A DNA stretch of 64,000 bases from an uncultured Kofleriaceae bacterium. Its GTDB lineage: Bacteria; Myxococcota_A; Polyangia; GCA-2747355; CAZCFB01. How positions within the stretch are numbered: position 1 is the first letter of the stretch; each line of letters opens with the position of its first letter. The translations under genes and the position numbers were made by a program. Of this stretch, positions 30,384-39,633 are shown piece by piece. Below the pieces are notes generated by a model. That model was not told where the DNA came from, made no database searches, and saw only the letters and a program-made list of their open reading frames with translations. The stretch covers positions 11,849 to 75,848 of the forward strand of contig CAZCFB010000007.1 of the NCBI GenBank assembly GCA_964497805.1, written 5' to 3'.

Positions 30384-33041
30384 ATGGTACTTCGACCATT
30401 AATCGCGCTGGTTCTGGCCTCTTTGGCCGGGGCCTGCACCATCGACGGCCCCAACGTGGACATCGACGGCAAGGACGTGGAGGCGATCTTCATCCACACC
30501 TCCGACATCCACTCCCGGCTGATCCCGTACAACATGGACCTGCTCCTGACGGACCAGAAGCTCGGTATGGAGCAGAAGTACGGACCCTTCGGCGGCGTGG
30601 CCCGGCTGTCAGCCCTGCTCAAGCAGGAGCGTCGCAACCACCCGCGCGTGGCGTACATCGACACCGGCGACGTGTTCCAGGGGGCCCCGGTCTTCAACGA
30701 GTTCGGCGGCGACATCGAGTTCAAGGCGATGACCCAGAACAGGGTGGACGCCTTCACCATCGGCAACCACGAGTTTGACAGCGGCGCCCACCATTTCGTA
30801 CGCAAGGCGGTGGAGTTCGCCCACTTCGCCATGCTCGGCGGCAACTACTCTCTGCAAGACTGGAACCGGGCAGGCATCACCCCCAACGGCCGTGTGGCCC
30901 AGCCGTACACCATCATCAACATGAAGGGCCTACGGGTGGGCATCATCGGCCTGGCCTCCATGGGCGGCAGCTACGGCGCCAACCTCAAGGGCCTGGTCAG
31001 GCTGAACAACATCGAGGTGGCCCAGAAGTACGTGGACTTCCTGCGCCCCATCGTCGACCTGGTGGTGATTACCTCCCACGTGGGCTACCACGATGACCGC
31101 GAGATCATCTCCCGCACCGAGGGGGTCGACCTCTACTTCGGCGGTCACCTGCACATCGCCCTGAACCCGCCCGAGGTGGTCAAGGACTGCGACGTGGTCA
31201 AGCTGGAGCGGGAGCGGGACCTGTATATCTGCGACACCCCCGCCAAGCTCTCGGCCTCCGCCGCGGTGTGCGAGGGGAACGCGGAGTGCGACAAGCTCAC
31301 CGGCGCGGACCAGACCAAGTGCAAGCAGAAGTGCGCGGCCAAGGCCAGGACCGACTGCGCCACCGAGGCCAAGGAGCGCCACTACAAGGAGAAGCTGGCC
31401 GAGCTGGACCAGAGCATCGCCTTCCTGAAGCGGCGCAAGTGCCGCCCCCGGGATGTGCCCCTGGTGCACTCCGGCGCCTTCCTCAAGTACATCGGCAAGC
31501 TGGAGGTGACCCTGCGCCAGTGCAACCGGCTGGGCGGGGCGGACTTCTGCCTGCTCAAGGACACCACCACCGGCAAGTGCGTGCCAGGCTACGAGCGGCG
31601 GCGCACCTGCCGCGGGAGCATCACCGGGGCCAACGACTGGGAGGTGCTGGCCCACAAGTACACCCTCGTTCCGGTGGACAGCCGCCTGCCCAGTGACCCG
31701 CAGATGCTTGCCCTGCTGGAGCCGTACACCCTCAAGCTCAACCGCAACCAGCGGCTCACCGAGGTCATCGGGTTCGCGTCCGAGCGGGTGCACCGCTTCG
31801 CCAGCTTCGGCGTGGTCACGCCCGACGGCCAGACCGCGCGCGCCGGCGGCGCCAACAAGGGGGACTCGCCCCTGGGCAACCTGGTCTGCGACTCCATGGG
31901 CAACCGGGCCCAGGTGTGGGCCGACTTTGCGGTGACCAACTCCCTGGGCATGCGCTCGGACATCATCCCCGGGCCGCTGGACGTGGAGCAGATGAATAAC
32001 GTCTTCCCCTTCGAGAACTCCATCACCGTCATGTACCTGTCCGGCTTCGAGGTGCAGGAGATGATGGACTTCATCTCCCAGCGGTCGGCAAGCCGCGGTT
32101 GCCAGCCCCAGGCCCAGGTTTCGGGCATCACTGCCACCCTCAACTGCAAGGGGTGCGACGCCAAGGGGGGCAACTCCTGCGTGAGGAGCACCTACGACGG
32201 CCAGCCGTGCGCCCAGAAGGTGACCATTGGCGGGTCCGGGCGCCCCTGCTCCACGGACGCGGACTGCAAGCTGAACGCGGGCCGGGCCACCGGCGAGATC
32301 TGCTCCACCCTGGACCACCCCGACAAGGTGAGCCAGGCGGGTAAGTCGCAGTGCCGCCTTCCGCTGGTCTGCAACCGGGTCTACCGCCTGGCCACCAACG
32401 ACTACGTAGCCCACGGGGGCAGCGGCTTCGCGGTGCTGGCGCGCAACACGACCCAGAAGAACCTGAAGATCCCCCTGCGCGACTCGGCCACCGACTTCAT
32501 CGTCAACATGCCGGGCTGCGCCTCCATCCCCCAGACCTACAAGCAGAAGGTTGATGGCAAGCCCATCAAGAACGTGATCACCGAGGTGCTCGAGCCGCTG
32601 CTCCCCTCGATCAAGCCGGCGGGCCAGCCCGCCAGCGGGGGCGACTGGCTCAAGCAGATGGAGGCAGCCGCCACCTCGGGCGACTGGAAGGGGGCCAACA
32701 CGGCCATGTCCCAGTTCGTGACCGCGCTCAAGGGCGCCAAGAACGCCATCAAGAGCAAGACCGACGCCACGCGCAAGGGGCTCATCAACTACCTGGCCTG
32801 CATCGACGAGGCCCCCAACGCCAAGACCAGCAAGTGCCTGGGCCTTACCTGCCAGCAGAAGCGCCTCTGCACCACCTACAAGGTCGCGGACAGGGGCAAG
32901 TGTGAGGCCCTGGCCCGTGTGCGGAGCGCGATGACCTGTATCAACCTGCCCTGCATCACGGCGGAGCAGGAGGGCCGGATCAACCTGATCAAGAACGACG
33001 GGGCCGGGACCGCTGACCCGAGCGACCCGTTCCCAGAGTGA
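30384..33041 (+). CDS. Lipoprotein: bifunctional metallophosphatase / 5'-nucleotidase with Cys-rich insertions and a C-terminal extension
   Basis: Lipobox 'LAGAC'. Metallophosphatase motifs 'HTSDIHSRL', 'DTGDVFQG', 'GNHEFD', 'TSHVGYHDD' and 'GGHLH'. 5'-nucleotidase C-domain 'NSLGMRSDI...VFPFENSI...GFEVQEMMDF...NDYVAHGGSGF'. At 885 aa it is much longer than typical UshA/NT5 enzymes. Confidence 0.85.
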   Translation: MVLRPLIALVLASLAGACTIDGPNVDIDGKDVEAIFIHTSDIHSRLIPYNMDLLLTDQKLGMEQKYGPFGGVARLSALLKQERRNHPRVAYIDTGDVFQGAPVFNEFGGDIEFKAMTQNRVDAFTIGNHEFDSGAHHFVRKAVEFAHFAMLGGNYSLQDWNRAGITPNGRVAQPYTIINMKGLRVGIIGLASMGGSYGANLKGLVRLNNIEVAQKYVDFLRPIVDLVVITSHVGYHDDREIISRTEGVDLYFGGHLHIALNPPEVVKDCDVVKLERERDLYICDTPAKLSASAAVCEGNAECDKLTGADQTKCKQKCAAKARTDCATEAKERHYKEKLAELDQSIAFLKRRKCRPRDVPLVHSGAFLKYIGKLEVTLRQCNRLGGADFCLLKDTTTGKCVPGYERRRTCRGSITGANDWEVLAHKYTLVPVDSRLPSDPQMLALLEPYTLKLNRNQRLTEVIGFASERVHRFASFGVVTPDGQTARAGGANKGDSPLGNLVCDSMGNRAQVWADFAVTNSLGMRSDIIPGPLDVEQMNNVFPFENSITVMYLSGFEVQEMMDFISQRSASRGCQPQAQVSGITATLNCKGCDAKGGNSCVRSTYDGQPCAQKVTIGGSGRPCSTDADCKLNAGRATGEICSTLDHPDKVSQAGKSQCRLPLVCNRVYRLATNDYVAHGGSGFAVLARNTTQKNLKIPLRDSATDFIVNMPGCASIPQTYKQKVDGKPIKNVITEVLEPLLPSIKPAGQPASGGDWLKQMEAAATSGDWKGANTAMSQFVTALKGAKNAIKSKTDATRKGLINYLACIDEAPNAKTSKCLGLTCQQKRLCTTYKVADRGKCEALARVRSAMTCINLPCITAEQEGRINLIKNDGAGTADPSDPFPE

Positions 33042-33058
33042 TCGGCGTGAGGACGACA

Positions 33059-34609
33059 ATGAAAAGCCTACACACCATCTCCTTGATCCTGGCCGTCGCC
33101 GCCGCTGGTTGCGGTGAGGCCGAGGATTACAACCCGGCCGCGGGCGCCTTCAAGGTGACCTGGACCGCCGGCAGCCCGCCTCCAACAAACTCCGCGGCCA
33201 ACCCGCGGGCCTTCTCCGCCACGGAGGAGACCTTCACCGTGGACATCCAGGCCCTGCGCCACGACAGGGCGGGCCAGGTGAGCACCGACGGGTACAACGG
33301 CTACGTGATGCTCAAGGCCATGCCCACGGGCAAGCTGAACCGGGATCCCTTTACCGTGGAGCTCAAGAACGGCAAGGCCACCGGCATCAAGGTGGGCCTG
33401 AGCCTGGCCTATGGCCATGTGCGGCTGGTGGCCGTGGACCCGGGCTACAAGGAGGCCAAGGTGCTGGCCGACGCCGCCTGTAACAACGGCAAGGACGACG
33501 ACGGCGACGGCTACATCGACTCCGAGGACCGGGGCTGCCTGGTGGGCGGCGACGACAGCGAGGAGGGCGGCACCGGCGCGGCGGGCGCGTCCCCCACCAT
33601 CTACTACGCCAACCCGCGCCTGTACGACATCCAGAACCCGGCGGTCCCTGGCGCCGTGGGCGACGAGTCGCCCCTCAACGGCCAGCGGGTCACCGTGGAC
33701 AAGGGCTGGCTCCTGGTGACGAACCTCTCCTCGGACGGTCTGTACGTCACCGACTTCGAGGGGGCCAAGTGGAACGCCACATCCAAGGTATGGAAGATCG
33801 CCGCCCAGGACCTCTCCTACGACCACATGTTCGCCTTCAACTTCAACGTGCCCCTTAACCTGCAGGTGGGCGACTGCCTGGTGGAACTGGACGGCAAGGT
33901 GGAGGAGTTCTTCGGCTACACCGAGATGGGCTTCCCCAACTGGAAGAAGGGGGACAACAAGTTCTGCTATGCCAAGGCAAAGGCCGGGGGCATGGCCGCC
34001 TGCCCCACGGACGGCACCTACAACAAGGATTGCTGGGACGCCATCAAGAAGCTGGCCAGCACCCCGGTGGACCTGTCCAAGCCCGTGGACATCACCGACA
34101 AGAACGGCACCACCAAGGTGTGGCCCTTCAAGGACCTGACCACCACCGAGCGGTGGGAGGCGGGCCTGGTGCAGGTGTCCAACGTGAAGCTCTTCTCCAA
34201 GGCCAGGATCTGCGATCGAAACGGCAACGGCGAGATCGACTTCAACGATCCCAACGACCCCTCGGGCGCGGAGAAGAACTGCGCCAACGGGTGCGGCGAC
34301 GACGAGACCTGCATCGTCAACGAGCAGTTCCAGGAGTACAGCCAGTGGTCGGTGAACTTCAAGGCGTCCCTGGGCGGCGTGGACTACAAGCAGGAGGTGT
34401 CCGTGACCTCGGGTGGCTCCATCCCCAACTGGAACGCCATGAAGGGGTGTGACTTCAAGAAATCCTCCGACGGCCTGAGCTGCACCCGGGCCACTGACAA
34501 GACCCTGACCAAGGTGCTGGGCACCATGCGCTCGTTCCGTTACGGCCGGCCGCCCTGGATCATCCAGACCCGCTCCCCGGCCGACTGCCCTGACTGCGTC
34601 AACAAGTAG
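33059..34609 (+). CDS. Lipoprotein with a MopE-type Cys/Asp metal-binding motif
   Basis: The ATG at 33059 (SD 'GAGGA') gives 'MKSLHTISLILAVAAAGC'. 'CNNGKDDDGDGYIDSEDRGC' matches the putative metal-binding (MopE/thrombospondin-type-3-like) motif common in myxobacteria. The rest is not recognised. Confidence 0.6.
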   Translation: MKSLHTISLILAVAAAGCGEAEDYNPAAGAFKVTWTAGSPPPTNSAANPRAFSATEETFTVDIQALRHDRAGQVSTDGYNGYVMLKAMPTGKLNRDPFTVELKNGKATGIKVGLSLAYGHVRLVAVDPGYKEAKVLADAACNNGKDDDGDGYIDSEDRGCLVGGDDSEEGGTGAAGASPTIYYANPRLYDIQNPAVPGAVGDESPLNGQRVTVDKGWLLVTNLSSDGLYVTDFEGAKWNATSKVWKIAAQDLSYDHMFAFNFNVPLNLQVGDCLVELDGKVEEFFGYTEMGFPNWKKGDNKFCYAKAKAGGMAACPTDGTYNKDCWDAIKKLASTPVDLSKPVDITDKNGTTKVWPFKDLTTTERWEAGLVQVSNVKLFSKARICDRNGNGEIDFNDPNDPSGAEKNCANGCGDDETCIVNEQFQEYSQWSVNFKASLGGVDYKQEVSVTSGGSIPNWNAMKGCDFKKSSDGLSCTRATDKTLTKVLGTMRSFRYGRPPWIIQTRSPADCPDCVNK

Positions 34610-34618
34610 AGAACTCAA

Positions 34619-36226
34619 ATGATGAGATCGGATAAGGACATGACCCCCAAACGTACCGCCCCAATCACGACTACCCTGGCCGCCCTGGCGGCGCTGATGC
34701 TCTACGCGTCCCCGGCCGTTGCCAACGACTGGATCGACACCCGCATCACCTACACCATCGGTGATGACAACTTCCTCAAGGACGCCGGCGAGCAGGTGCC
34801 AGACTCCCCCCTGCTCAGCGTGGGCGACCGGGACGGCTACCAGCTCCCCTTCGACAACCTGGACCTGGCCTCAACCGGGCGCGAGAACGAGCTGCACCTG
34901 GTGCTCTACAAGAAGGTGACCGGGATCCTGCCCGGGCTGATAACCGAGGCCGCGGCCGCCCTTGAGCTGGACCTCGAGGCCCTGGCAAAGGAGGAGAGCA
35001 TAGGCCGGGTGCTCAAGGACGACTCCTCCTACATCCGCATCGCCTACGCCCTGGACGAGCTGCGCAAGGGGTCCGAGTACATCGACATCGTGCTCTTCCC
35101 CCTGGACGGCGACCGGTTCCGCGCGGGCTACCTCTACGACCTCACCTGGGGCGGCTCTGATATGTTCCCCGGCAAGAAGGGCCCCTCACCGGCGTTCAAG
35201 ATCGGCGGCAACCACGGCTTCATGTACTGGTGGGCCGGCATGAAGATGGTGCAGGGCGAGCTCCCCACCAAGTACGACAAGAGCGTGAGCGGCACCGAGC
35301 ACTCGGTCACCGAGCACGAGACCCTGTACAGCGGCCTGGCGGGCCTGGGCTTCCAGCCCATCGACGGGTTGAGCATCGACGTGAGCGGCGGCTACGTGCA
35401 GCAGGCCCACAACCAGCTGCGCGACATCGCGGCCACCACCGTGGACGCGGCGGGCGGCTCGGCGCGGCTCGCCTACGGCCGGGGCCTCAAGGTGGGCCTC
35501 TCCTCGGACCTGAAGCTGCTGCGTAATGACCGTGAGTTCCTGGAGAACCTCTCCCGCCGGCCCACCTACAAGACCGACGACAGCGTGAACTGGCGCGTGG
35601 CGGCGGAGGGCAACGTCATCGCCCAGACCCTTGCCGATCCGGACAAGGCCGGCTCCACCACGGTGCAGCTCGCCTCGGCCGCGGCCCTGGACTTCCGCCT
35701 GCAGCGCAACTACCTGCGCCTCAACGCCACCGTGGTGTACCGCAGCCTGGAGTTCAACCTGATGAACAAGCCGGGCCTGCCCACGTACGTGGCCTTCTCC
35801 GACGATCAGATCATCCAGCCCCAGATCTTCGGCGCTGTTTCGCTGGACTACCACTTCCCCAAGCTCTGGCTCACCCCGGGGATCCAGGCCGGCGTGGAGA
35901 TGCCGCCCGCAATGAAGACCGAGCTCTACTCCACCGACGCGGGAAGCACCCCCTCCACCAACCTGATCGGAACCTACACTGTGATCGTGGGCAGCGACGG
36001 GGAGTACCGGATCTTGCCCGAGGACGAGGACCGCGTGCCAGTCTACTCGGTGCGCCTCAACGCGCGCTGGTACCCGTCGGACATGCTCACCATTTTGGCC
36101 TTCTTCCTGTTCGAGTACGACCACAACGCGGCTGTGCTTGATTTCGCGGCCGACCAGACCAAAACCCGGACCTTCGACGAGCCGGTGCGCATCGGCGCGG
36201 GCATCACGGCGCAGGCGCGGTTCTAA
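34619..36226 (+). CDS. Probable outer-membrane beta-barrel protein
   Basis: Signal peptide 'LAALAALMLYASPAVA'. Alternating beta-strand-like pattern throughout, and a C-terminal 'GAGITAQARF' ending in Phe, which is an OMP-type beta-signal. Confidence 0.55.
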   Translation: MMRSDKDMTPKRTAPITTTLAALAALMLYASPAVANDWIDTRITYTIGDDNFLKDAGEQVPDSPLLSVGDRDGYQLPFDNLDLASTGRENELHLVLYKKVTGILPGLITEAAAALELDLEALAKEESIGRVLKDDSSYIRIAYALDELRKGSEYIDIVLFPLDGDRFRAGYLYDLTWGGSDMFPGKKGPSPAFKIGGNHGFMYWWAGMKMVQGELPTKYDKSVSGTEHSVTEHETLYSGLAGLGFQPIDGLSIDVSGGYVQQAHNQLRDIAATTVDAAGGSARLAYGRGLKVGLSSDLKLLRNDREFLENLSRRPTYKTDDSVNWRVAAEGNVIAQTLADPDKAGSTTVQLASAAALDFRLQRNYLRLNATVVYRSLEFNLMNKPGLPTYVAFSDDQIIQPQIFGAVSLDYHFPKLWLTPGIQAGVEMPPAMKTELYSTDAGSTPSTNLIGTYTVIVGSDGEYRILPEDEDRVPVYSVRLNARWYPSDMLTILAFFLFEYDHNAAVLDFAADQTKTRTFDEPVRIGAGITAQARF

Positions 36227-36227
36227 G

Positions 36228-37169
36228 ATGAGCGCGGCAAGCGACGTCCTCGCCCTGGACCTGGGGGGCTCAAAGCTGGCCCTGGCCACGGTGAGCCGCA
36301 CGGGGGACCTGACCCGGCACGAGCGCAAGCCAACGGCGGAGGTGCCGGACGGGGATGCTCTCGTGGCGTGGGTGGCGGAGCAGACCACGGCCTGGGGCAT
36401 GGAGCCCCTGGGGCTGGGCATCAGCGCCGGCGGCCCCCTGGACGATGTGGAGGGATGCATCACCTCCTGGCCCCGCATGGAGCACCTTTGGGCATACCCC
36501 CTGGGCGAGAAGCTCAAGGCGGCCATCCCCTCGCTCGCCTCGGTGAAGCTGGTCAACGACGCCAACGCGGCGTGCGCGGGGGAGGCGGTGTTCGGCGCGG
36601 CGCGGGGGCTGAAGCGCGCCATCTACATCACGGTCTCCACCGGCGTGGGGGGCGGCGCGGTGGTGGGGGGGCTGCTGCTGCGCGGGGAGCGGGGCAACGC
36701 CGCCGAGTTTGGCCACATGATCGTGGATCCCAACGGCCCCATGTGTGATTGCGGCCAGCAGGGCTGCCTGGAGGCGGTCTCCTCTGGCTCGGGGCTCTTC
36801 CGCCGGGCGGTGGAGGCGGGCATGGTGGACCCAGAGGAGATGGGCTGGGCCGAGATGGGCTACTGGCTGGCCGAGCGCCTGGAGCAGGGGGACGCCGGCG
36901 CCGAGGGGCTGTGGGAGCGGGCCCTGGACGGCCTGGCCGTGGGCATCACCAACCTGTACAACGCCTTCGTGCCCCAGGCCATCGTGCTGGGCGGCGGGCT
37001 GTGTGGGCTGGTTCAGCAGGACGAGGAGCGGCTGCGGGCCCTGCTGGAGAAGCGGGCTCGGCTCATGCCCCTGCCCCAGGGGGTGGTGCGCTTCTCCCTG
37101 AACCGGGACACGATCCCCCTGCTGGGCGTGGCGGCAGTGGCCGGAGGGTGGATTGGTCAGGAAGCGTAG
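36228..37169 (+). CDS. ROK-family sugar kinase (glucokinase / N-acetylhexosamine kinase type)
   Basis: The ATG at 36228 lies 1 nt after the preceding stop. 'VLALDLGGSKLALA', 'NDANAACAGE', 'ITVSTGVGGG', the ROK zinc motif 'CDCGQQGCLEAVSSG' and 'IVLGGG'. I reject the track ORF's 30-codon Arg-rich extension. Confidence 0.85.
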   Translation: MSAASDVLALDLGGSKLALATVSRTGDLTRHERKPTAEVPDGDALVAWVAEQTTAWGMEPLGLGISAGGPLDDVEGCITSWPRMEHLWAYPLGEKLKAAIPSLASVKLVNDANAACAGEAVFGAARGLKRAIYITVSTGVGGGAVVGGLLLRGERGNAAEFGHMIVDPNGPMCDCGQQGCLEAVSSGSGLFRRAVEAGMVDPEEMGWAEMGYWLAERLEQGDAGAEGLWERALDGLAVGITNLYNAFVPQAIVLGGGLCGLVQQDEERLRALLEKRARLMPLPQGVVRFSLNRDTIPLLGVAAVAGGWIGQEA

Positions 37170-37201: not shown

Positions 37202-37477
37202 GTGTACCTCGGAAGAGTCATGGGCACGGTGGTTGCCGAGAAGAAGATCGAGGGGACAGAGGGCTTCAAGTTCCTCATTGTCCAGCCCCTGGATCACAAC
37301 GAACAACCCACCGGCGACCCCATCGTGGCCGCGGACACGGTCCGGGCCGGCCCCGGCGAGCTGGTCTACCTGACCCACGCGCGGGAGGCGGCCCAGGCGT
37401 GCGAGCCCTGGTTCGTGCCGGTGGACGCCGCCATCATCGGCATCGTGGACAGCGTGGACACGGACGACGAATCATGA
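37202..37477 (+). CDS. Bacterial microcompartment vertex protein, BMC-P (EutN/CcmL family), paralog 1
   Basis: 'MYLGRVMGTVVAEKK..EGTEGFKFLIVQPLD....GDPIVAADTVRAGPGELVYL....PVDAAIIGIVDSV' fits the PF03319 pattern. 91 aa, GTG start with a 'GGAGG' SD. Confidence 0.85.
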   Translation: MYLGRVMGTVVAEKKIEGTEGFKFLIVQPLDHNEQPTGDPIVAADTVRAGPGELVYLTHAREAAQACEPWFVPVDAAIIGIVDSVDTDDES

Positions 37478-37743
37478 AGATCTGTCGCGTACTCGGCACC
37501 GTCACCTCCACCGCCAAGCAGCCGGTCTACGAGGGCCAGAAGCTCATGGTGGTGCAGCCCCTCAACGCGGACCTGGAGAACGAGGGGCACTCCTACCTGG
37601 CCGTGGACCGGGTGCAGGCAGGGGTGGGCGACCTGGTCATGGTCAACTCCGAGGGGAACGCGGCCCGCTCCCTGTTCAACCGCGAGGTCATCTGCATCCG
37701 CTCCCTGATCACAGGCATCATCGATGAGGTGGACGTCCCGTGA
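37474..37743 (+). CDS. Bacterial microcompartment vertex protein, BMC-P (EutN/CcmL family), paralog 2
   Basis: The internal ATG at 37474 (ATGA overlap) gives 'MKICRVLGTVTSTAKQPVYEGQKLMVVQPLN....YLAVDRVQAGVGDLVMV...RSLITGIIDEVD'. 89 aa, PF03319 pattern. Confidence 0.85.
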   Translation: MKICRVLGTVTSTAKQPVYEGQKLMVVQPLNADLENEGHSYLAVDRVQAGVGDLVMVNSEGNAARSLFNREVICIRSLITGIIDEVDVP

Positions 37744-38498
37744 GGCGAATGAGCGAGGCTGATCAGCGCCGGGAGCTCCACCACTACAGCGTGCGCCTCT
37801 GGGAGAGGGGGTGGGTGGCCAACCACGACGGGAACCTGTCGGCGCGGCTCCCCCGGGCGCGCCTCATGTGCACGCCCACGGCCATGTCCAAGGCGGACAT
37901 CGAGGCCGACATGATGCTGGTGCTGGATGACACCGGCAAGAAGCTGCAGGGGGAGCGCAAGCCCTTCTCCGAGATCAACCTGCACCTGGCCTGGTACCAC
38001 GCCCGCCCCGACGTGGGGGCGGTGATCCACGCCCACCCGGTCACCGCCACCGCCCTGGGCGTGTCGGGCAAGTCCCTGGACAGGCCCTTTTTGCCAGAGG
38101 CCGTGGTGAGCCTGGGGCCCATCATCCCCACTGTGCCCATGGCCATGCCGGGGCAGGAGGCGGTGCAGGCGGCCGCGCCCTACCTGGACGAGTACGACGC
38201 CCTGATCCTGGCGGGCAACGGGGTGATCACCTGTGGCCCCGACCTGGAGCTGGCCTACCTGCGCATGGAGCTGGTGGAGCACCTGGCGCGCATCTACGTG
38301 GAGGCCACCAGGGTGGGCGGCCCGGATCCGCTGCCGCCCCGCTTCCTGCAGCCCCTGCTGGCGGCCAGGGCAAAGGCGGGCCTGGGCCCCGAGGCCAGGG
38401 GCGGGCAGACCACCCGGCCCACTGATGCCCCCGCCGGCGCGGAAGGCGATCTGGCGACCATCATCAAGTCGGAGATCGGCAAGATCCTCGGCGGGTAG
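37740..38498 (+). CDS. Class II aldolase/adducin-family protein with a C-terminal linker and amphipathic helix
   Basis: 'LWERGWVANHDGNLSARL', 'FSEINLHLAWY' (catalytic Glu region) and 'VIHAHPVTATAL' (two Zn-ligand His). Either GTG at 37740 overlaps the BMC-P stop (GTGA) or the ATG at 37749 is the start. The tail is 'GLGPEARGGQTTRPTDAPAGAEG-DLATIIKSEIGKILGG'. Confidence 0.85.
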   Translation: MRRMSEADQRRELHHYSVRLWERGWVANHDGNLSARLPRARLMCTPTAMSKADIEADMMLVLDDTGKKLQGERKPFSEINLHLAWYHARPDVGAVIHAHPVTATALGVSGKSLDRPFLPEAVVSLGPIIPTVPMAMPGQEAVQAAAPYLDEYDALILAGNGVITCGPDLELAYLRMELVEHLARIYVEATRVGGPDPLPPRFLQPLLAARAKAGLGPEARGGQTTRPTDAPAGAEGDLATIIKSEIGKILGG

Positions 38499-38505
38499 CT
38501 TTTCA

Positions 38506-39633
38506 ATGAGAAATGCCTTCATCGCGCTGCTGGTCCTTGTCACGGCATGCGGCGAGGAGGATCCGTCCGGCCAGGCGCCGGATCCCATCAAGGAGATCGT
38601 CGCCGGGGTGGTGAAGCCGTACGTGGATCCGGCCGCGGCGCTCACCGACGCGAGCAAGACCGTGGGCCTGGTGGTGGCGGCCCTGGGCGAGGCAGGGGAG
38701 GGGACCTACGGCTTCGGGGAGACCAGCGCGGGCAGCGGGGTCATCCCCGACGGGGACACCGTCTTCCAGATAGGTTCGGTGAGCAAGGCGCTCACCGGGT
38801 TGATCCTGGCCCAGCAGGTGGCGGAGGGCGGGCTCGCTCGGAGCGCGCTGGTGGAGGCGCTGTTGCCGGCCCTGGCTGGATCCAACGGCACGAAGAAGGT
38901 CACCCTCGGCATGCTCGCCGCCCACCACTCGGGCCTGGAGAGCATGCCCACCAACCTGCCCAAGAATGACCCCATCAGCCCGGCCACTGGCTACACCCTT
39001 GCCGCGCTCAAGACCTACCTCTTCGGGCTCGCCGCCCCCGTGGCCGCGGGGAAGGCGTACAAGTACTCCAACCTCGGCATCGGCCTGCTCGGCCTCGGGC
39101 TTGAGAAGCAGCTCAAGGTGACGGGGTACAACGCGCTCCTGGTCGCCACCCTGAGAAAGGAGCTGGGGATAACGGACCTGTGGGGGCAGGTAAACAAGCT
39201 GCCCGCTCTGGCCATGTCACGCCTGGCCCAGGGGTACGCCAACAAGGGGACCGCCCGGGTGGCAGGACACCCCGGGCAAATGGGGGTGCTGGCCGGCGCC
39301 GGCGAGGCGCTGACCACGGGCAAGATCGCGCTGCTCTTGCTGGAGACCTTCACCGGCCAGCGCGCCGGGGCCCTGGACGCGGCCGTTGCCGAGTGGGTCA
39401 AGCCCATCAAGCCCATGACCGGGGGAGACAGCATCGCCTACGCCCTGGAGGTCCAGCCCGACGGAGGCGGCCACATCTACAAGAAGGCAGGCAACACCGC
39501 GGGCGGCTACTCCGCCTACCTGGCCTTCCGCCGGGACAAGAAGGTGGGCGTGTTCGTCATGGCCAACGTTGCCTCGTTCAAGGGCGTCAAGACCATGGCC
39601 CTGACCATCCTGGAGAAGCTGGCGGCTCAGTGA
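38506..39633 (+). CDS. Lipoprotein, beta-lactamase-related serine hydrolase (class C / PBP4*-like fold)
   Basis: The ATG at 38506 gives 'MRNAFIALLVLVTAC'. SxxK 'FQIGSVSKALTG', YxN 'YKYSNLG' and a KTG-like 'YKKAGNTAGG'. I reject the track ORF's 91-codon extension, which overlaps the aldolase. Confidence 0.8.
   Translation: MRNAFIALLVLVTACGEEDPSGQAPDPIKEIVAGVVKPYVDPAAALTDASKTVGLVVAALGEAGEGTYGFGETSAGSGVIPDGDTVFQIGSVSKALTGLILAQQVAEGGLARSALVEALLPALAGSNGTKKVTLGMLAAHHSGLESMPTNLPKNDPISPATGYTLAALKTYLFGLAAPVAAGKAYKYSNLGIGLLGLGLEKQLKVTGYNALLVATLRKELGITDLWGQVNKLPALAMSRLAQGYANKGTARVAGHPGQMGVLAGAGEALTTGKIALLLLETFTGQRAGALDAAVAEWVKPIKPMTGGDSIAYALEVQPDGGGHIYKKAGNTAGGYSAYLAFRRDKKVGVFVMANVASFKGVKTMALTILEKLAAQ

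What the first reader, a model, noticed from the sequence alone, without database searches (positions are those of the whole stretch)
38379..38495. C-terminal linker plus amphipathic helix on the aldolase looks like a BMC encapsulation peptide
Seen: after the ~210-aa aldolase core, the protein continues with a low-complexity Gly/Pro/Ala/Thr linker ('GLGPEARGGQTTRPTDAPAGAEG'). It ends in 'DLATIIKSEIGKILGG', where hydrophobic residues (L, I, I, I, I, L) recur with i/i+3/i+4 spacing.

Established knowledge: cargo enzymes of metabolosomes are targeted by ~15-20-residue amphipathic helices, set off by a flexible linker at the N- or C-terminus.

Inference: this aldolase is probably lumenal cargo or shell-associated. 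That would make it a signature enzyme rather than an accidental neighbour.
Basis: partly seen in the sequence, partly recalled or inferred. Interest (0 to 1): 0.65.

Follow-up and report, generated by a model that had tools for sequence, protein, structure and literature searches.

The report
Microcompartment targeting tail on an aldolase
The aldolase gene that follows two microcompartment vertex-protein genes ends in a flexible linker and a short conserved helix that fits the known "encapsulation peptide" pattern, a feature the literature has already noted for this type of locus, so it is a sound but largely ordinary finding.

Summary
ORF 37749-38498 (+) is a class II aldolase (PF00596) in a tight operon behind two BMC-P genes. 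After the fold ends at about residue 212 it carries a conserved cap (KAGLGPEARG), a 15-residue variable linker and a terminal helix, DLATIIKSEIGKIL.

Among the 120 nearest homologue clusters, 117 keep an extension of at least 28 residues. The linker varies freely in length and sequence, while L238, I242, R/K243, E245, I246 and L250 are conserved. AlphaFold predicts the helix both in the full protein and in the isolated tail. Solved class II aldolases stop at the core.

This matches the published definition of a BMC encapsulation peptide. It also matches the published description of the Haliangium-type (HO) type I satellite locus: two BMC-P genes plus an aldolase whose C-terminal extension is "possibly an EP" (Sutter 2021).

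Caveats:
- Amphipathicity of this single peptide is only moderate (shuffle p about 0.1-0.15).
- About a third of the HO-clade aldolases (17 of 45), 16 of them still next to BMC-P genes, have lost the tail.
- Docking of the helix onto the enzyme could not be excluded.
- Nothing here is experimental.

Side observations are a His-to-Asn change at the third metal ligand and conserved synteny with a 5'-nucleotidase and a ROK kinase.

Verdict: new member of a known kind, low to moderate interest.

The parts
37202..37477 (+). BMC-P (pentameric vertex shell protein) gene 1
   Evidence: PF03319 EutN_CcmL, E 5.5e-27, covering profile positions 1-83 from residue 1. Its stop overlaps the next gene's start (ATGA at 37474-37477).
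37474..37743 (+). BMC-P gene 2
   Evidence: PF03319, E 1.5e-24. Its stop at 37741-37743 lies 5 nt before the aldolase ATG at 37749, or overlaps the alternative GTG at 37740.
37749..38498 (+). Class II aldolase-family gene (249 aa from ATG 37749; alternative GTG 37740 gives 252 aa; residue numbers in this report use the 252-aa frame)
   Evidence: PF00596, E 2.6e-40. AF2 mean pLDDT is 95. Foldseek top hits are FucA/DrdA/YgbL-type structures with TM(target) about 0.9. An identical protein, P0001, occurs in two independent metagenome assemblies.
38373..38402 (+). Conserved C-terminal cap of the enzyme, K212-G221 (KAGLGPEARG).
   Evidence: Column entropies are 0.1-1.6 bits; A213, G214 and L215 are each conserved in at least 115 of 120 sequences and R220 in 104 of 117. 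The AGLGP part is retained in the tail-less Archangium/Myxococcaceae-like orthologues, which end '...AGLGPKPK'.
38403..38447 (+). Variable linker, G222-G236 (GQTTRPTDAPAGAEG)
   Evidence: Column entropy is 2.6-3.7 bits. Total tail length after L215 ranges from 30 to 78 residues in tail-bearing homologues. AF2 pLDDT dips to 67 for residues 231-240. Composition is 40% G/A/S, 20% T, 13% P, with no aliphatic residues.
38448..38495 (+). Putative encapsulation peptide: terminal helix D237-L250 (DLATIIKSEIGKIL) plus GG
   Evidence: AF2 predicts a helix at 233-251 in the full protein (pLDDT 92 for 241-250). The isolated 39-aa tail without an alignment also gives a helix at 234-250 (pLDDT 86-87). Conserved positions are L238 (96/117), I242 (V/I 108/118), R/K243 (95/118), E245 (111/118), I246 (I/L/V 115/116) and L250 (101/115).
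38217..38219 (+). Asn160 codon (AAC) at the position of the third metal-ligand His of class II aldolases
   Evidence: The query 'LAGNG' aligns to 'LANHG' in PDB 6voq, 6vop and 4c24. Of the nearest homologue clusters, 105 of 120 have GNG and 15 have [NS]HG or GHG.
36228..37169 (+). ROK-family sugar kinase directly upstream on the same strand. It is possibly functionally linked but is not part of the EP.
   Evidence: PF00480, E 3e-50. It is conserved immediately upstream of BMC-P, BMC-P, aldolase in relatives with 82% and 63% aldolase identity. It is absent from the more distant loci.

Best explanation
Residues 222-252 of the aldolase are a C-terminal encapsulation extension: a disordered linker followed by a short amphipathic helix. 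It targets or tethers the enzyme to a Haliangium-type (HO) bacterial microcompartment, whose other shell genes and aldehyde dehydrogenase lie elsewhere in the genome.

The inferred mechanism follows characterised EPs. [quoted passage not shown] The linker leaves the presumed aldolase oligomer free.

Shown here: the gene arrangement, the fold boundary, the helix prediction, the conservation pattern, and the absence of the tail from non-BMC homologues. Inferred: binding to the shell, lumenal location, and the role as the aldehyde-generating signature enzyme.
For: (1) The operon is BMC-P, BMC-P, aldolase with overlapping or 5-nt junctions. The same order is found in about 30 Myxococcota genome loci and in closer metagenomic relatives.

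(2) The fold ends at about residue 212. Solved homologues are 203-222 aa, and Foldseek alignments span 206-215 columns of the 252-aa model.

(3) Family pattern: 117 of 120 nearest clusters carry the tail. Linker columns have 2.6-3.7 bits of entropy and the tail length varies from 30 to 78 aa. Helix positions L238, I242, R243, E245, I246 and L250 have 0.5-1.5 bits. Segment dN/dS is lower in the helix (0.31, 0.85, 0.33) than in the linker (0.59, 1.13, 0.57) in all three comparisons, though 14-15 codons per segment is noisy.

(4) The helix is predicted with and without the enzyme core.

(5) Outside the HO clade, tail-less aldolases never have shell genes within 6 kb (0 of 13), against 13 of 21 tail-bearing ones (Fisher p = 0.00024).

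(6) In HO type II-like main loci, the aldehyde dehydrogenase N-terminal EPs (MERQQLESLVEKVLARLQAG, MERDKVTDLVERVLSRIQAG) share the h..hh...h..h pattern. They also share the 'LV..xL.RL.G' residues with the aldolase tails of the same loci (VSSVVRDALKRLG, AGDLVAAALKRLG).

(7) Literature: PMC4594438 and PMC8217296 with its Suppl. Data 2 describe exactly this feature and this satellite locus.
Against: The single-sequence amphipathic moment is modest (muH 0.35-0.44, shuffle p 0.10-0.15), and the window tail scores only 6 bits on the family motif HMM.

In the HO-type clade, 16 of 17 tail-less aldolases still sit next to BMC-P genes. The tail is therefore dispensable for the gene association, and within that clade its presence does not track shell-gene proximity (p = 0.38).

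AF2 gives the helix pLDDT 92 in the full-length model, and I could not inspect coordinates or PAE, so docking onto the enzyme is not excluded.

No BMC-H, BMC-T or aldehyde dehydrogenase gene is present in the 64-kb window, so the existence of a complete shell in this genome is assumed.

EPs have been reported to work poorly in recombinant HO shells (PMC6056538).
Confidence: 0.75

Rival explanations
1. The terminal helix is an intrinsic element of the enzyme, such as an oligomer-interface clamp, an active-site lid or a regulatory element, with no role in microcompartment targeting.
For: AF2 assigns pLDDT 92 to the helix in the full-length model. R243 and E245 are conserved as specific residues rather than as generic polar positions. 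In E. coli FucA the C-terminal tail contributes to the neighbouring active site (my own knowledge of the FucA structural literature, not checked here). Tail presence does not correlate with BMC-P adjacency inside the HO clade.
Against: The helix is predicted just as well in isolation, so the high pLDDT need not mean docking. The linker varies from about 14 to about 60 residues and tolerates large insertions, which is unusual for a fixed structural element. Close orthologues of about 50-60% identity do without the tail entirely. Solved class II aldolases have no equivalent element. Outside the HO clade, tail presence correlates strongly with shell genes.
Confidence: 0.1
2. The helix is EP-like but acts mainly in cargo-cargo association. 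It would nucleate an enzyme core with the EP-bearing aldehyde dehydrogenase, or bind specifically to the two co-encoded BMC-P paralogues at shell vertices, rather than binding generically to hexamer facets.
For: The aldolase tails resemble the AldDh N-terminal EPs in HO type II-like loci. The aldolase is persistently co-encoded with exactly two BMC-P genes. EPs are reported to trigger aggregation before encapsulation (abstract of PMC7221423).
Against: There are no direct data. Tail-less aldolases keep the same BMC-P, BMC-P neighbourhood, so the pairing with BMC-P does not depend on the tail.
Confidence: 0.1
3. The C-terminal amphipathic helix is a membrane-targeting sequence of the MinD/FtsA kind that places the aldolase at the inner membrane.
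For: The architecture, a flexible linker followed by a short C-terminal amphipathic helix ending in ...GKILGG, superficially resembles the MinD-type targeting sequence (my own recollection).
Against: The family consensus carries a nearly invariant acidic residue (E245) and an acidic N-cap (D/E237), and it has no aromatic residues. The gene context is shell proteins. The same tail type occurs on aldolases inside complete BMC loci.
Confidence: 0.03

Closest known systems
C-terminal encapsulation peptides of BMC-associated class II aldolases (PVM, PVM-like, GRM5, ACI types; Aussignargues et al. 2015, PMC4594438; Sutter et al. 2021, PMC8217296)
   Same: It is the same enzyme family (PF00596) and the same terminus. 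The helix is about 12-17 aa, aliphatic-rich and proline-free: 37-43% I/L/V here against the published 34 +/- 8%. A poorly conserved G/A/S/P-rich linker precedes it, and cytosolic homologues lack the extension.
   Different: It contains no cysteine, whereas published aldolase linkers average 5.5% Cys. The helix motif (L..[LI][VI]R.E[IVL]..[VA]L) is specific to this myxobacterial clade. No targeting experiment exists for this clade.
HO (Haliangium ochraceum-type) BMC, type I satellite locus (Sutter et al. 2021, main text and Suppl. Data 2)
   Same: The locus has two adjacent BMC-P genes followed by a pfam00596 aldolase, with no BMC-H or BMC-T gene in the locus. [quoted passage not shown]
   Different: The source is an uncultured marine-metagenome lineage; the best species-representative genome hit has only 54% aldolase identity. 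The main locus was not observed. The aldolase belongs to a sub-clade with Asn in place of the third metal-ligand His. The locus is embedded in a 5'-nucleotidase / lipoprotein / outer-membrane-like protein / ROK kinase gene string that the passages I read do not mention.
N-terminal EP of metabolosome aldehyde dehydrogenases (PduP type; HO AldDh)
   Same: It is a short amphipathic helix with hydrophobic residues at i, i+3, i+4 spacing. The HO type II-like AldDh EPs found here share the pattern and several residues with the aldolase tails.
   Different: It sits at the opposite terminus, on a different enzyme, and there is no detectable sequence homology beyond the pattern.
E. coli L-fuculose-1-phosphate aldolase FucA and 5-deoxyribulose-1-phosphate aldolase DrdA (PDB 1FUA, 6BTG/6BTD)
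   Same: The fold is the same (TM to target about 0.9). The equivalents of Glu73, His92 and His94 are conserved (E78, H97, H99).
   Different: Sequence identity is only about 24-30%. The third ligand His is Asn here. An extra 40-residue tail is present. No NCBIfam equivalog model comes near its cut-off (best 92.6 bits against a cut-off of 250), so the substrate is unknown.

Membership tests
BMC encapsulation peptide (definition of Kinney 2012 / Aussignargues 2015) | Extension at the N- or C-terminus of an enzyme encoded with BMC shell genes | tested here: met
   The tail follows the PF00596 core. The gene is in an operon with two PF03319 genes.
BMC encapsulation peptide (definition of Kinney 2012 / Aussignargues 2015) | Segment of about 15-20 residues predicted to form an alpha-helix | tested here: met
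   AF2 predicts a helix at 233-251 in the full protein and at 234-250 in the isolated tail.
BMC encapsulation peptide (definition of Kinney 2012 / Aussignargues 2015) | The helix is amphipathic | tested here: inconclusive
   All six aliphatic residues fall within a 180-degree arc. However, muH is 0.35-0.44, shuffle p is 0.10-0.15, and the value sits only around the top fifth of background 16-mers (19% reach it). The family-profile muH is 0.44-0.51 with shuffle p of 0.07.
BMC encapsulation peptide (definition of Kinney 2012 / Aussignargues 2015) | Separated from the catalytic domain by a poorly conserved linker of variable length | tested here: met
Linker columns have 2.6-3.7 bits of entropy and tails are 30-78 aa long.
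BMC encapsulation peptide (definition of Kinney 2012 / Aussignargues 2015) | Absent from homologues that are not associated with a BMC | tested here: met
   Solved homologues of 203-222 aa lack it. Outside the HO clade, 0 of 13 tail-less loci against 13 of 21 tail-bearing loci have shell genes within 6 kb (p = 0.00024). Caveat: inside the HO clade, 16 tail-less orthologues are still BMC-P-adjacent.
BMC encapsulation peptide (definition of Kinney 2012 / Aussignargues 2015) | Sufficient and/or necessary to target cargo to the shell | not testable with these tools
   This needs reporter fusions or co-purification.
HO-type BMC, type I satellite locus (Sutter 2021) | Two BMC-P genes adjacent to a pfam00596 aldolase, away from the main shell locus | tested here: met
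   One search identifies the genes. A phmmer scan of all window ORFs with BMC-P and BMC-H seeds finds only the two BMC-P genes in 64 kb.
HO-type BMC, type I satellite locus (Sutter 2021) | Main locus elsewhere in the same genome with BMC-H, BMC-T, a third BMC-P and an AldDh bearing an N-terminal EP | not testable with these tools
   Only this 64-kb window and the same region in two metagenome contigs are available.
HO-type BMC, type I satellite locus (Sutter 2021) | The aldolase groups with HO-type aldolases rather than PVM, GRM5 or ACI types | tested here: met
   In a rough NJ tree of 79 core sequences, the window falls in the Myxococcota clade. That clade holds the BMC-P, BMC-P, aldolase loci and the loci with 3 BMC-P, BMC-H and AldDh, and it is separate from the Acidobacteria (ACI) and Firmicutes clades. 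No H. ochraceum reference sequence was in the set.
Canonical metal-dependent class II aldolase (FucA type) | PF00596 fold | tested here: met
Canonical metal-dependent class II aldolase (FucA type) | Three-His metal site (FucA His92, His94, His155) plus the catalytic Glu73 | tested here: not met
   E78, H97 and H99 are present, but the third His is Asn160. The FucA ligand identities come from my own knowledge of the FucA literature.
Canonical metal-dependent class II aldolase (FucA type) | Match to a curated equivalog model that would name the substrate | tested here: not met
   The best NCBIfam hits are far below their cut-offs: 92.6 against 250, 88 against 300, and 82 against 264.

The most novel reading that the evidence does not exclude
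The EP-tagged protein belongs to a large, conserved sub-clade of HO-type aldolases with a remodelled metal site (third His replaced by Asn). In this lineage it is encoded in a fixed gene string: secreted 5'-nucleotidase, lipoprotein, outer-membrane-like protein, ROK sugar kinase, BMC-P, BMC-P, aldolase.

If that linkage is functional, the aldolase would be the missing signature enzyme of the HO microcompartment, whose native function is still called enigmatic. It would cleave a kinase-generated, nucleotide- or sugar-derived ketose phosphate to an aldehyde that the encapsulated aldehyde dehydrogenase consumes. This would give a concrete, testable pathway for the best-studied model shell.
Probability: 0.2. 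Interest if true: 0.6.

Novelty: new member of a known kind. Interest (0 to 1): 0.3.

Why it matters
The HO shell is the main structural and engineering model for bacterial microcompartments, yet its native cargo and function are unknown. A native, conserved C-terminal targeting helix from HO-type aldolases could have practical use as a loading tag. It also supports treating the aldolase as genuine cargo.

The finding itself does not change the current picture. C-terminal EPs on BMC aldolases were described in 2015, and the HO satellite aldolase extension was flagged as a possible EP in 2021. What this analysis adds is:
- a defined clade-specific motif;
- evidence that the tail was secondarily lost in Myxococcaceae-like lineages;
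- the altered metal ligand;
- a conserved nucleotidase and kinase neighbourhood that could guide functional tests.

Tried and rejected
- I tried to score the tail with the published EP HMM library (Sutter 2021, Suppl. Data 5). The stored file is truncated before the aldolase EP models, with no occurrence of 'aldol'.
- I tried to read Lassila 2014, which used a 'predicted targeting peptide' with HO shells, to see whether it came from the aldolase. The paper is not held, and the secondary papers I checked did not say.
- Searches for the Hoch_4425, Hoch_4426 and Hoch_4427 locus tags found nothing.
- A 17-column HMM of the helix, built from homologues under 62% identical, is too short to be discriminating. 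The window tail scores 6 bits, similar to chance hits elsewhere in the window. I therefore rely on full-length homology and register, not on motif score.
- The single-sequence hydrophobic moment is not significant.
- An overall tail-versus-shell-gene contingency across all 79 loci is weak (p = 0.088). It became informative only after splitting by clade.
- I checked whether the ROK kinase is a general neighbour of BMC-P, BMC-P, aldolase. It is not present in any of the 80 species-representative loci except an unrelated Bacillota locus. It is present only in the closer metagenomic relatives.
- In Kofleriaceae-like loci the homologues of orf535 and orf523 are 3-4 kb away, with unrelated genes between (DUF1223, lactonase-like, 3D domain). 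That linkage may be residual synteny rather than functional coupling.
- Model coordinates and PAE are not exposed, so the docking question could only be approached indirectly, by folding the tail alone.

Full report
**What is there**

The window region 37202-38498 (+) holds three tightly packed genes.
- Two are BMC-P (EutN/CcmL, PF03319) genes, at 37202-37477 and 37474-37743. They overlap by ATGA.
- The third is a class II aldolase-family gene (PF00596, residues 12-187, E 2.6e-40). It starts at ATG 37749, or at GTG 37740 in the ORF list, and ends at TAG 38496-38498.

The finding's coordinates, 38379-38495, are exactly residues G214-G252 of the 252-aa frame, and the quoted strings are correct. 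A phmmer scan of every ORF in the 64-kb window with BMC-P and BMC-H seeds finds only these two shell genes. This is therefore a satellite locus, not a complete microcompartment locus. The identical aldolase and the same neighbours occur on contigs from two independent metagenome assemblies.

**Anatomy of the tail**

AlphaFold2, run with a 120-sequence alignment, gives a confident class II aldolase fold (mean pLDDT 95). The last core helices are at 200-212 and 216-219, followed by a dip to pLDDT 67 for residues 231-240 and a terminal helix at 233-251 with pLDDT 92. Foldseek matches to FucA, DrdA, YgbL and AraD structures cover only 206-215 columns. The solved homologues are 203-222 residues long, so the last 40 or so residues lie outside the known fold.

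- Residues 213-221 (AGLGPEARG) are strongly conserved and belong to the enzyme.
- Residues 222-236 form a hypervariable spacer. Its entropy is 2.6-3.7 bits per column and its length varies, so that total tails run from 30 to 78 residues.
- Residues 237-250 carry a clade-specific motif, [DE]-L-x-x-[LIV]-[VI]-R-x-E-[IVL]-x-[RA]-[VA]-L, with E245 present in 111 of 118 sequences.
- By extension length, 117 of 120 clusters have a tail of at least 28 residues.

**Is it more than chance?**

On its own, the window peptide is only moderately amphipathic. Its muH is 0.35-0.44, and 10-15% of shuffles and 19% of background 16-mers do as well. It also scores poorly on a short motif HMM.

The evidence for a real element is evolutionary. 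Hydrophobic and two charged positions are conserved against a freely drifting linker. Segment dN/dS is lower in the helix than in the linker in all three pairwise comparisons, although 14-15 codons is a noisy sample. The 39-residue tail folded alone, without an alignment, is again predicted as coil followed by a helix at 234-250 with pLDDT 86-87. The helix is therefore autonomous, and the high confidence in the full-length model need not mean that it docks on the enzyme.

**Context in other genomes**

A scan of species-representative genomes returned 80 loci. I classified them by tail length, shell genes within about 6 kb, and metal ligands, and placed them on a rough NJ tree.
- In the Acidobacteria/Firmicutes half of the tree, no tail-less aldolase has shell genes nearby (0 of 13), against 13 of 21 tail-bearing ones (Fisher p = 0.00024). 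This reproduces the published rule.
- In the Myxococcota (HO-type) half, the BMC-P, BMC-P, aldolase arrangement is common, but only 28 of the 45 aldolases keep the tail.
- Of the 17 tail-less HO-clade aldolases, 16 still sit beside BMC-P genes. One large Archangium/Myxococcaceae-like group ends at '...AGLGPKPK', and others end at '...KAFPGR'.
- These tail-less forms are nested among tail-bearing ones, which suggests secondary loss. It shows that the tail is not needed for the gene association, but it does not show that the tail is something other than an EP.

In loci with three BMC-P genes, a BMC-H gene and an aldehyde dehydrogenase (HO type II-like; L011 and L016), the dehydrogenase has an N-terminal EP: MERQQLESLVEKVLARLQAG and MERDKVTDLVERVLSRIQAG. 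The aldolase tails of the same loci (…VSSVVRDALKRLG, …AGDLVAAALKRLG) resemble these in spacing and in several residues. This is consistent with both peptides addressing the same partner.

**Comparison with what is known**

Aussignargues et al. 2015 found a C-terminal EP of about 17 aa on 21 of 23 BMC-associated class II aldolases. It sat behind a 23-81-residue non-conserved linker and was absent from 12 non-BMC aldolases (PMC4594438). The composition of the window's helix falls within their ranges: 37-43% I/L/V and no Pro. So does its linker, which is G/A/S/T/P-rich.

The window is a new, uncultured member of it. No experimental test of an HO aldolase EP was found, and Hagen et al. 2018 note that EPs often recruit heterologous cargo to BMC shells ineffectively.

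**Mechanism and rivals**

The best-supported reading is an encapsulation peptide (confidence about 0.75). The disordered linker presents a short helix whose aliphatic face, together with R/K243 and E245, binds lumenal shell surfaces and/or other EP-bearing cargo during assembly, so that the aldolase becomes lumenal cargo.

Three rivals remain.
- An enzyme-intrinsic helix (0.1). This is not excluded, because model coordinates and PAE were unavailable. It is disfavoured by the variable linker, by natural tail-less orthologues and by the autonomous helix prediction.
- A cargo-cargo or vertex-specific variant of EP function (0.1).
- A membrane-targeting helix (0.03). The conserved acidic residues and the gene context argue against it.

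**Side observations**

Metal site. The position of the third metal-ligand His of class II aldolases ('NHG' in 6voq, 6vop and 4c24) is Asn160 here ('GNG'). Of the nearest clusters, 105 of 120 share this change. In the genome set, all 21 Asn-type aldolases of the HO clade fall in the window's group or among the tail-less forms. The Kofleriaceae-like, type II-like, ACI and non-BMC aldolases keep His, with L046 the only exception. E78, H97 and H99 are retained, so a 2-His-1-Glu site may persist. No NCBIfam equivalog model comes near its threshold, so the substrate is unknown.

Synteny. In the window, and in relatives with 82% and 63% aldolase identity, the gene string is fixed: 5'-nucleotidase (Metallophos + 5_nucleotid_C), a 523-aa lipoprotein-like ORF, a 535-aa ORF with a signal peptide and a C-terminal Phe, a ROK kinase, BMC-P, BMC-P, aldolase. 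A 56%-identical relative instead has a nuclease-like gene and two unknown genes placed divergently, plus an MFS transporter. Kofleriaceae-like loci keep homologues of orf535 and orf523 3-4 kb away, with unrelated genes between. This is compatible with the published suggestion that HO compartments, like SPU compartments, serve nucleic-acid-derived sugar catabolism. It remains weak evidence.

**Verdict**

It is a new member of a known kind, and interest is low to moderate (0.3). The most novel reading still open is that this altered-metal-site, EP-tagged aldolase, together with its nucleotidase and kinase neighbourhood, defines the native pathway of the HO compartment. I put that at a probability of about 0.2, with an interest of about 0.6 if true.

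Noticed in passing
window 38217-38219 (Asn160 codon of the aldolase): The third metal-ligand His of class II aldolases ('NHG' in PDB homologues) is Asn ('GNG') in this protein. It is also Asn in 105 of the 120 nearest homologue clusters, while E78, H97 and H99 are kept. In the genome set, the tail-less Myxococcaceae-like HO aldolases share the Asn, whereas the Kofleriaceae-like, type II-like, ACI and non-BMC aldolases keep His (one exception, L046). This may indicate an altered metal site or altered chemistry.
   Followed up: partly
window 30384-37169 (+): 5'-nucleotidase 30384-33041, ORF 33038-34609, ORF 34619-36226, ROK kinase 36228-37169: The gene string of secreted 5'-nucleotidase, lipoprotein-like 523-aa ORF, 535-aa ORF with a signal peptide and C-terminal Phe, and ROK kinase sits directly upstream of BMC-P, BMC-P, aldolase. 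It is conserved in relatives with 82% and 63% aldolase identity (L083, L085, L086). It is partly retained in rearranged form near Kofleriaceae-like loci (L024, L028, L032, L036, L041). It may be a functional link to nucleotide or sugar scavenging.
   Followed up: partly
Homologues P0067, P0071, P0073, P0081, P0084, P0091, P0105, P0106, P0109, P0119; loci L024, L027-L029, L032, L036, L038, L041, L047 (aldolase linkers): A subset of tail-bearing aldolases carries a conserved Cys-containing motif in the middle of the otherwise variable linker: 'VVACAPAP[PH]G[SA]DVEV' or 'VVACAPAPHS.VPT..PGG'. The window protein lacks it. Its function is unknown. Published BMC aldolase linkers are also unusually Cys-rich (5.5%).
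   Followed up: no
Loci L008, L012-L015, L017-L019, L022, L030 (ending '...AGLGPKPK') and L004, L010, L031, L033, L052 (ending '...KAFPGR'): Aldolases in Archangium/Myxococcaceae-like and some other Myxococcota genomes keep the BMC-P, BMC-P, aldolase arrangement but have no linker or helix. They are nested among tail-bearing forms in a rough tree, which suggests the putative EP was lost secondarily.
   Followed up: partly
window 38506-39633 (+): A beta-lactamase-family (PF00144) gene with a lipoprotein-type signal (…LVLVTAC…) starts 8 nt after the aldolase stop codon. It is not conserved downstream of the aldolase in relatives, where the downstream genes are UvrD, RF-1 or an MFS transporter, so it is probably an unrelated neighbour.
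   Followed up: partly
window 37202 / 37220 and 37740 / 37749 (start codons): The Pfam profile alignment starts at residue 1 of the GTG-37202 product, so BMC-P gene 1 probably starts there (91 aa) rather than at the 85-aa start used by the metagenome gene calls. The aldolase probably starts at ATG 37749 (249 aa) rather than at the GTG 37740 in the ORF list.
   Followed up: yes
L011 1708-1770 and L016 3247-3309 (AldDh N-termini); L055 4549-4914: The HO type II-like aldehyde dehydrogenases have N-terminal EP-like helices (MERQQLESLVEKVLARLQAG, MERDKVTDLVERVLSRIQAG) that resemble the aldolase tails of the same loci. A 122-aa ORF in an Acidobacteria (ACI-type) locus also carries an EP-like segment (DELRSLVRDAIARHLGG).
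   Followed up: partly
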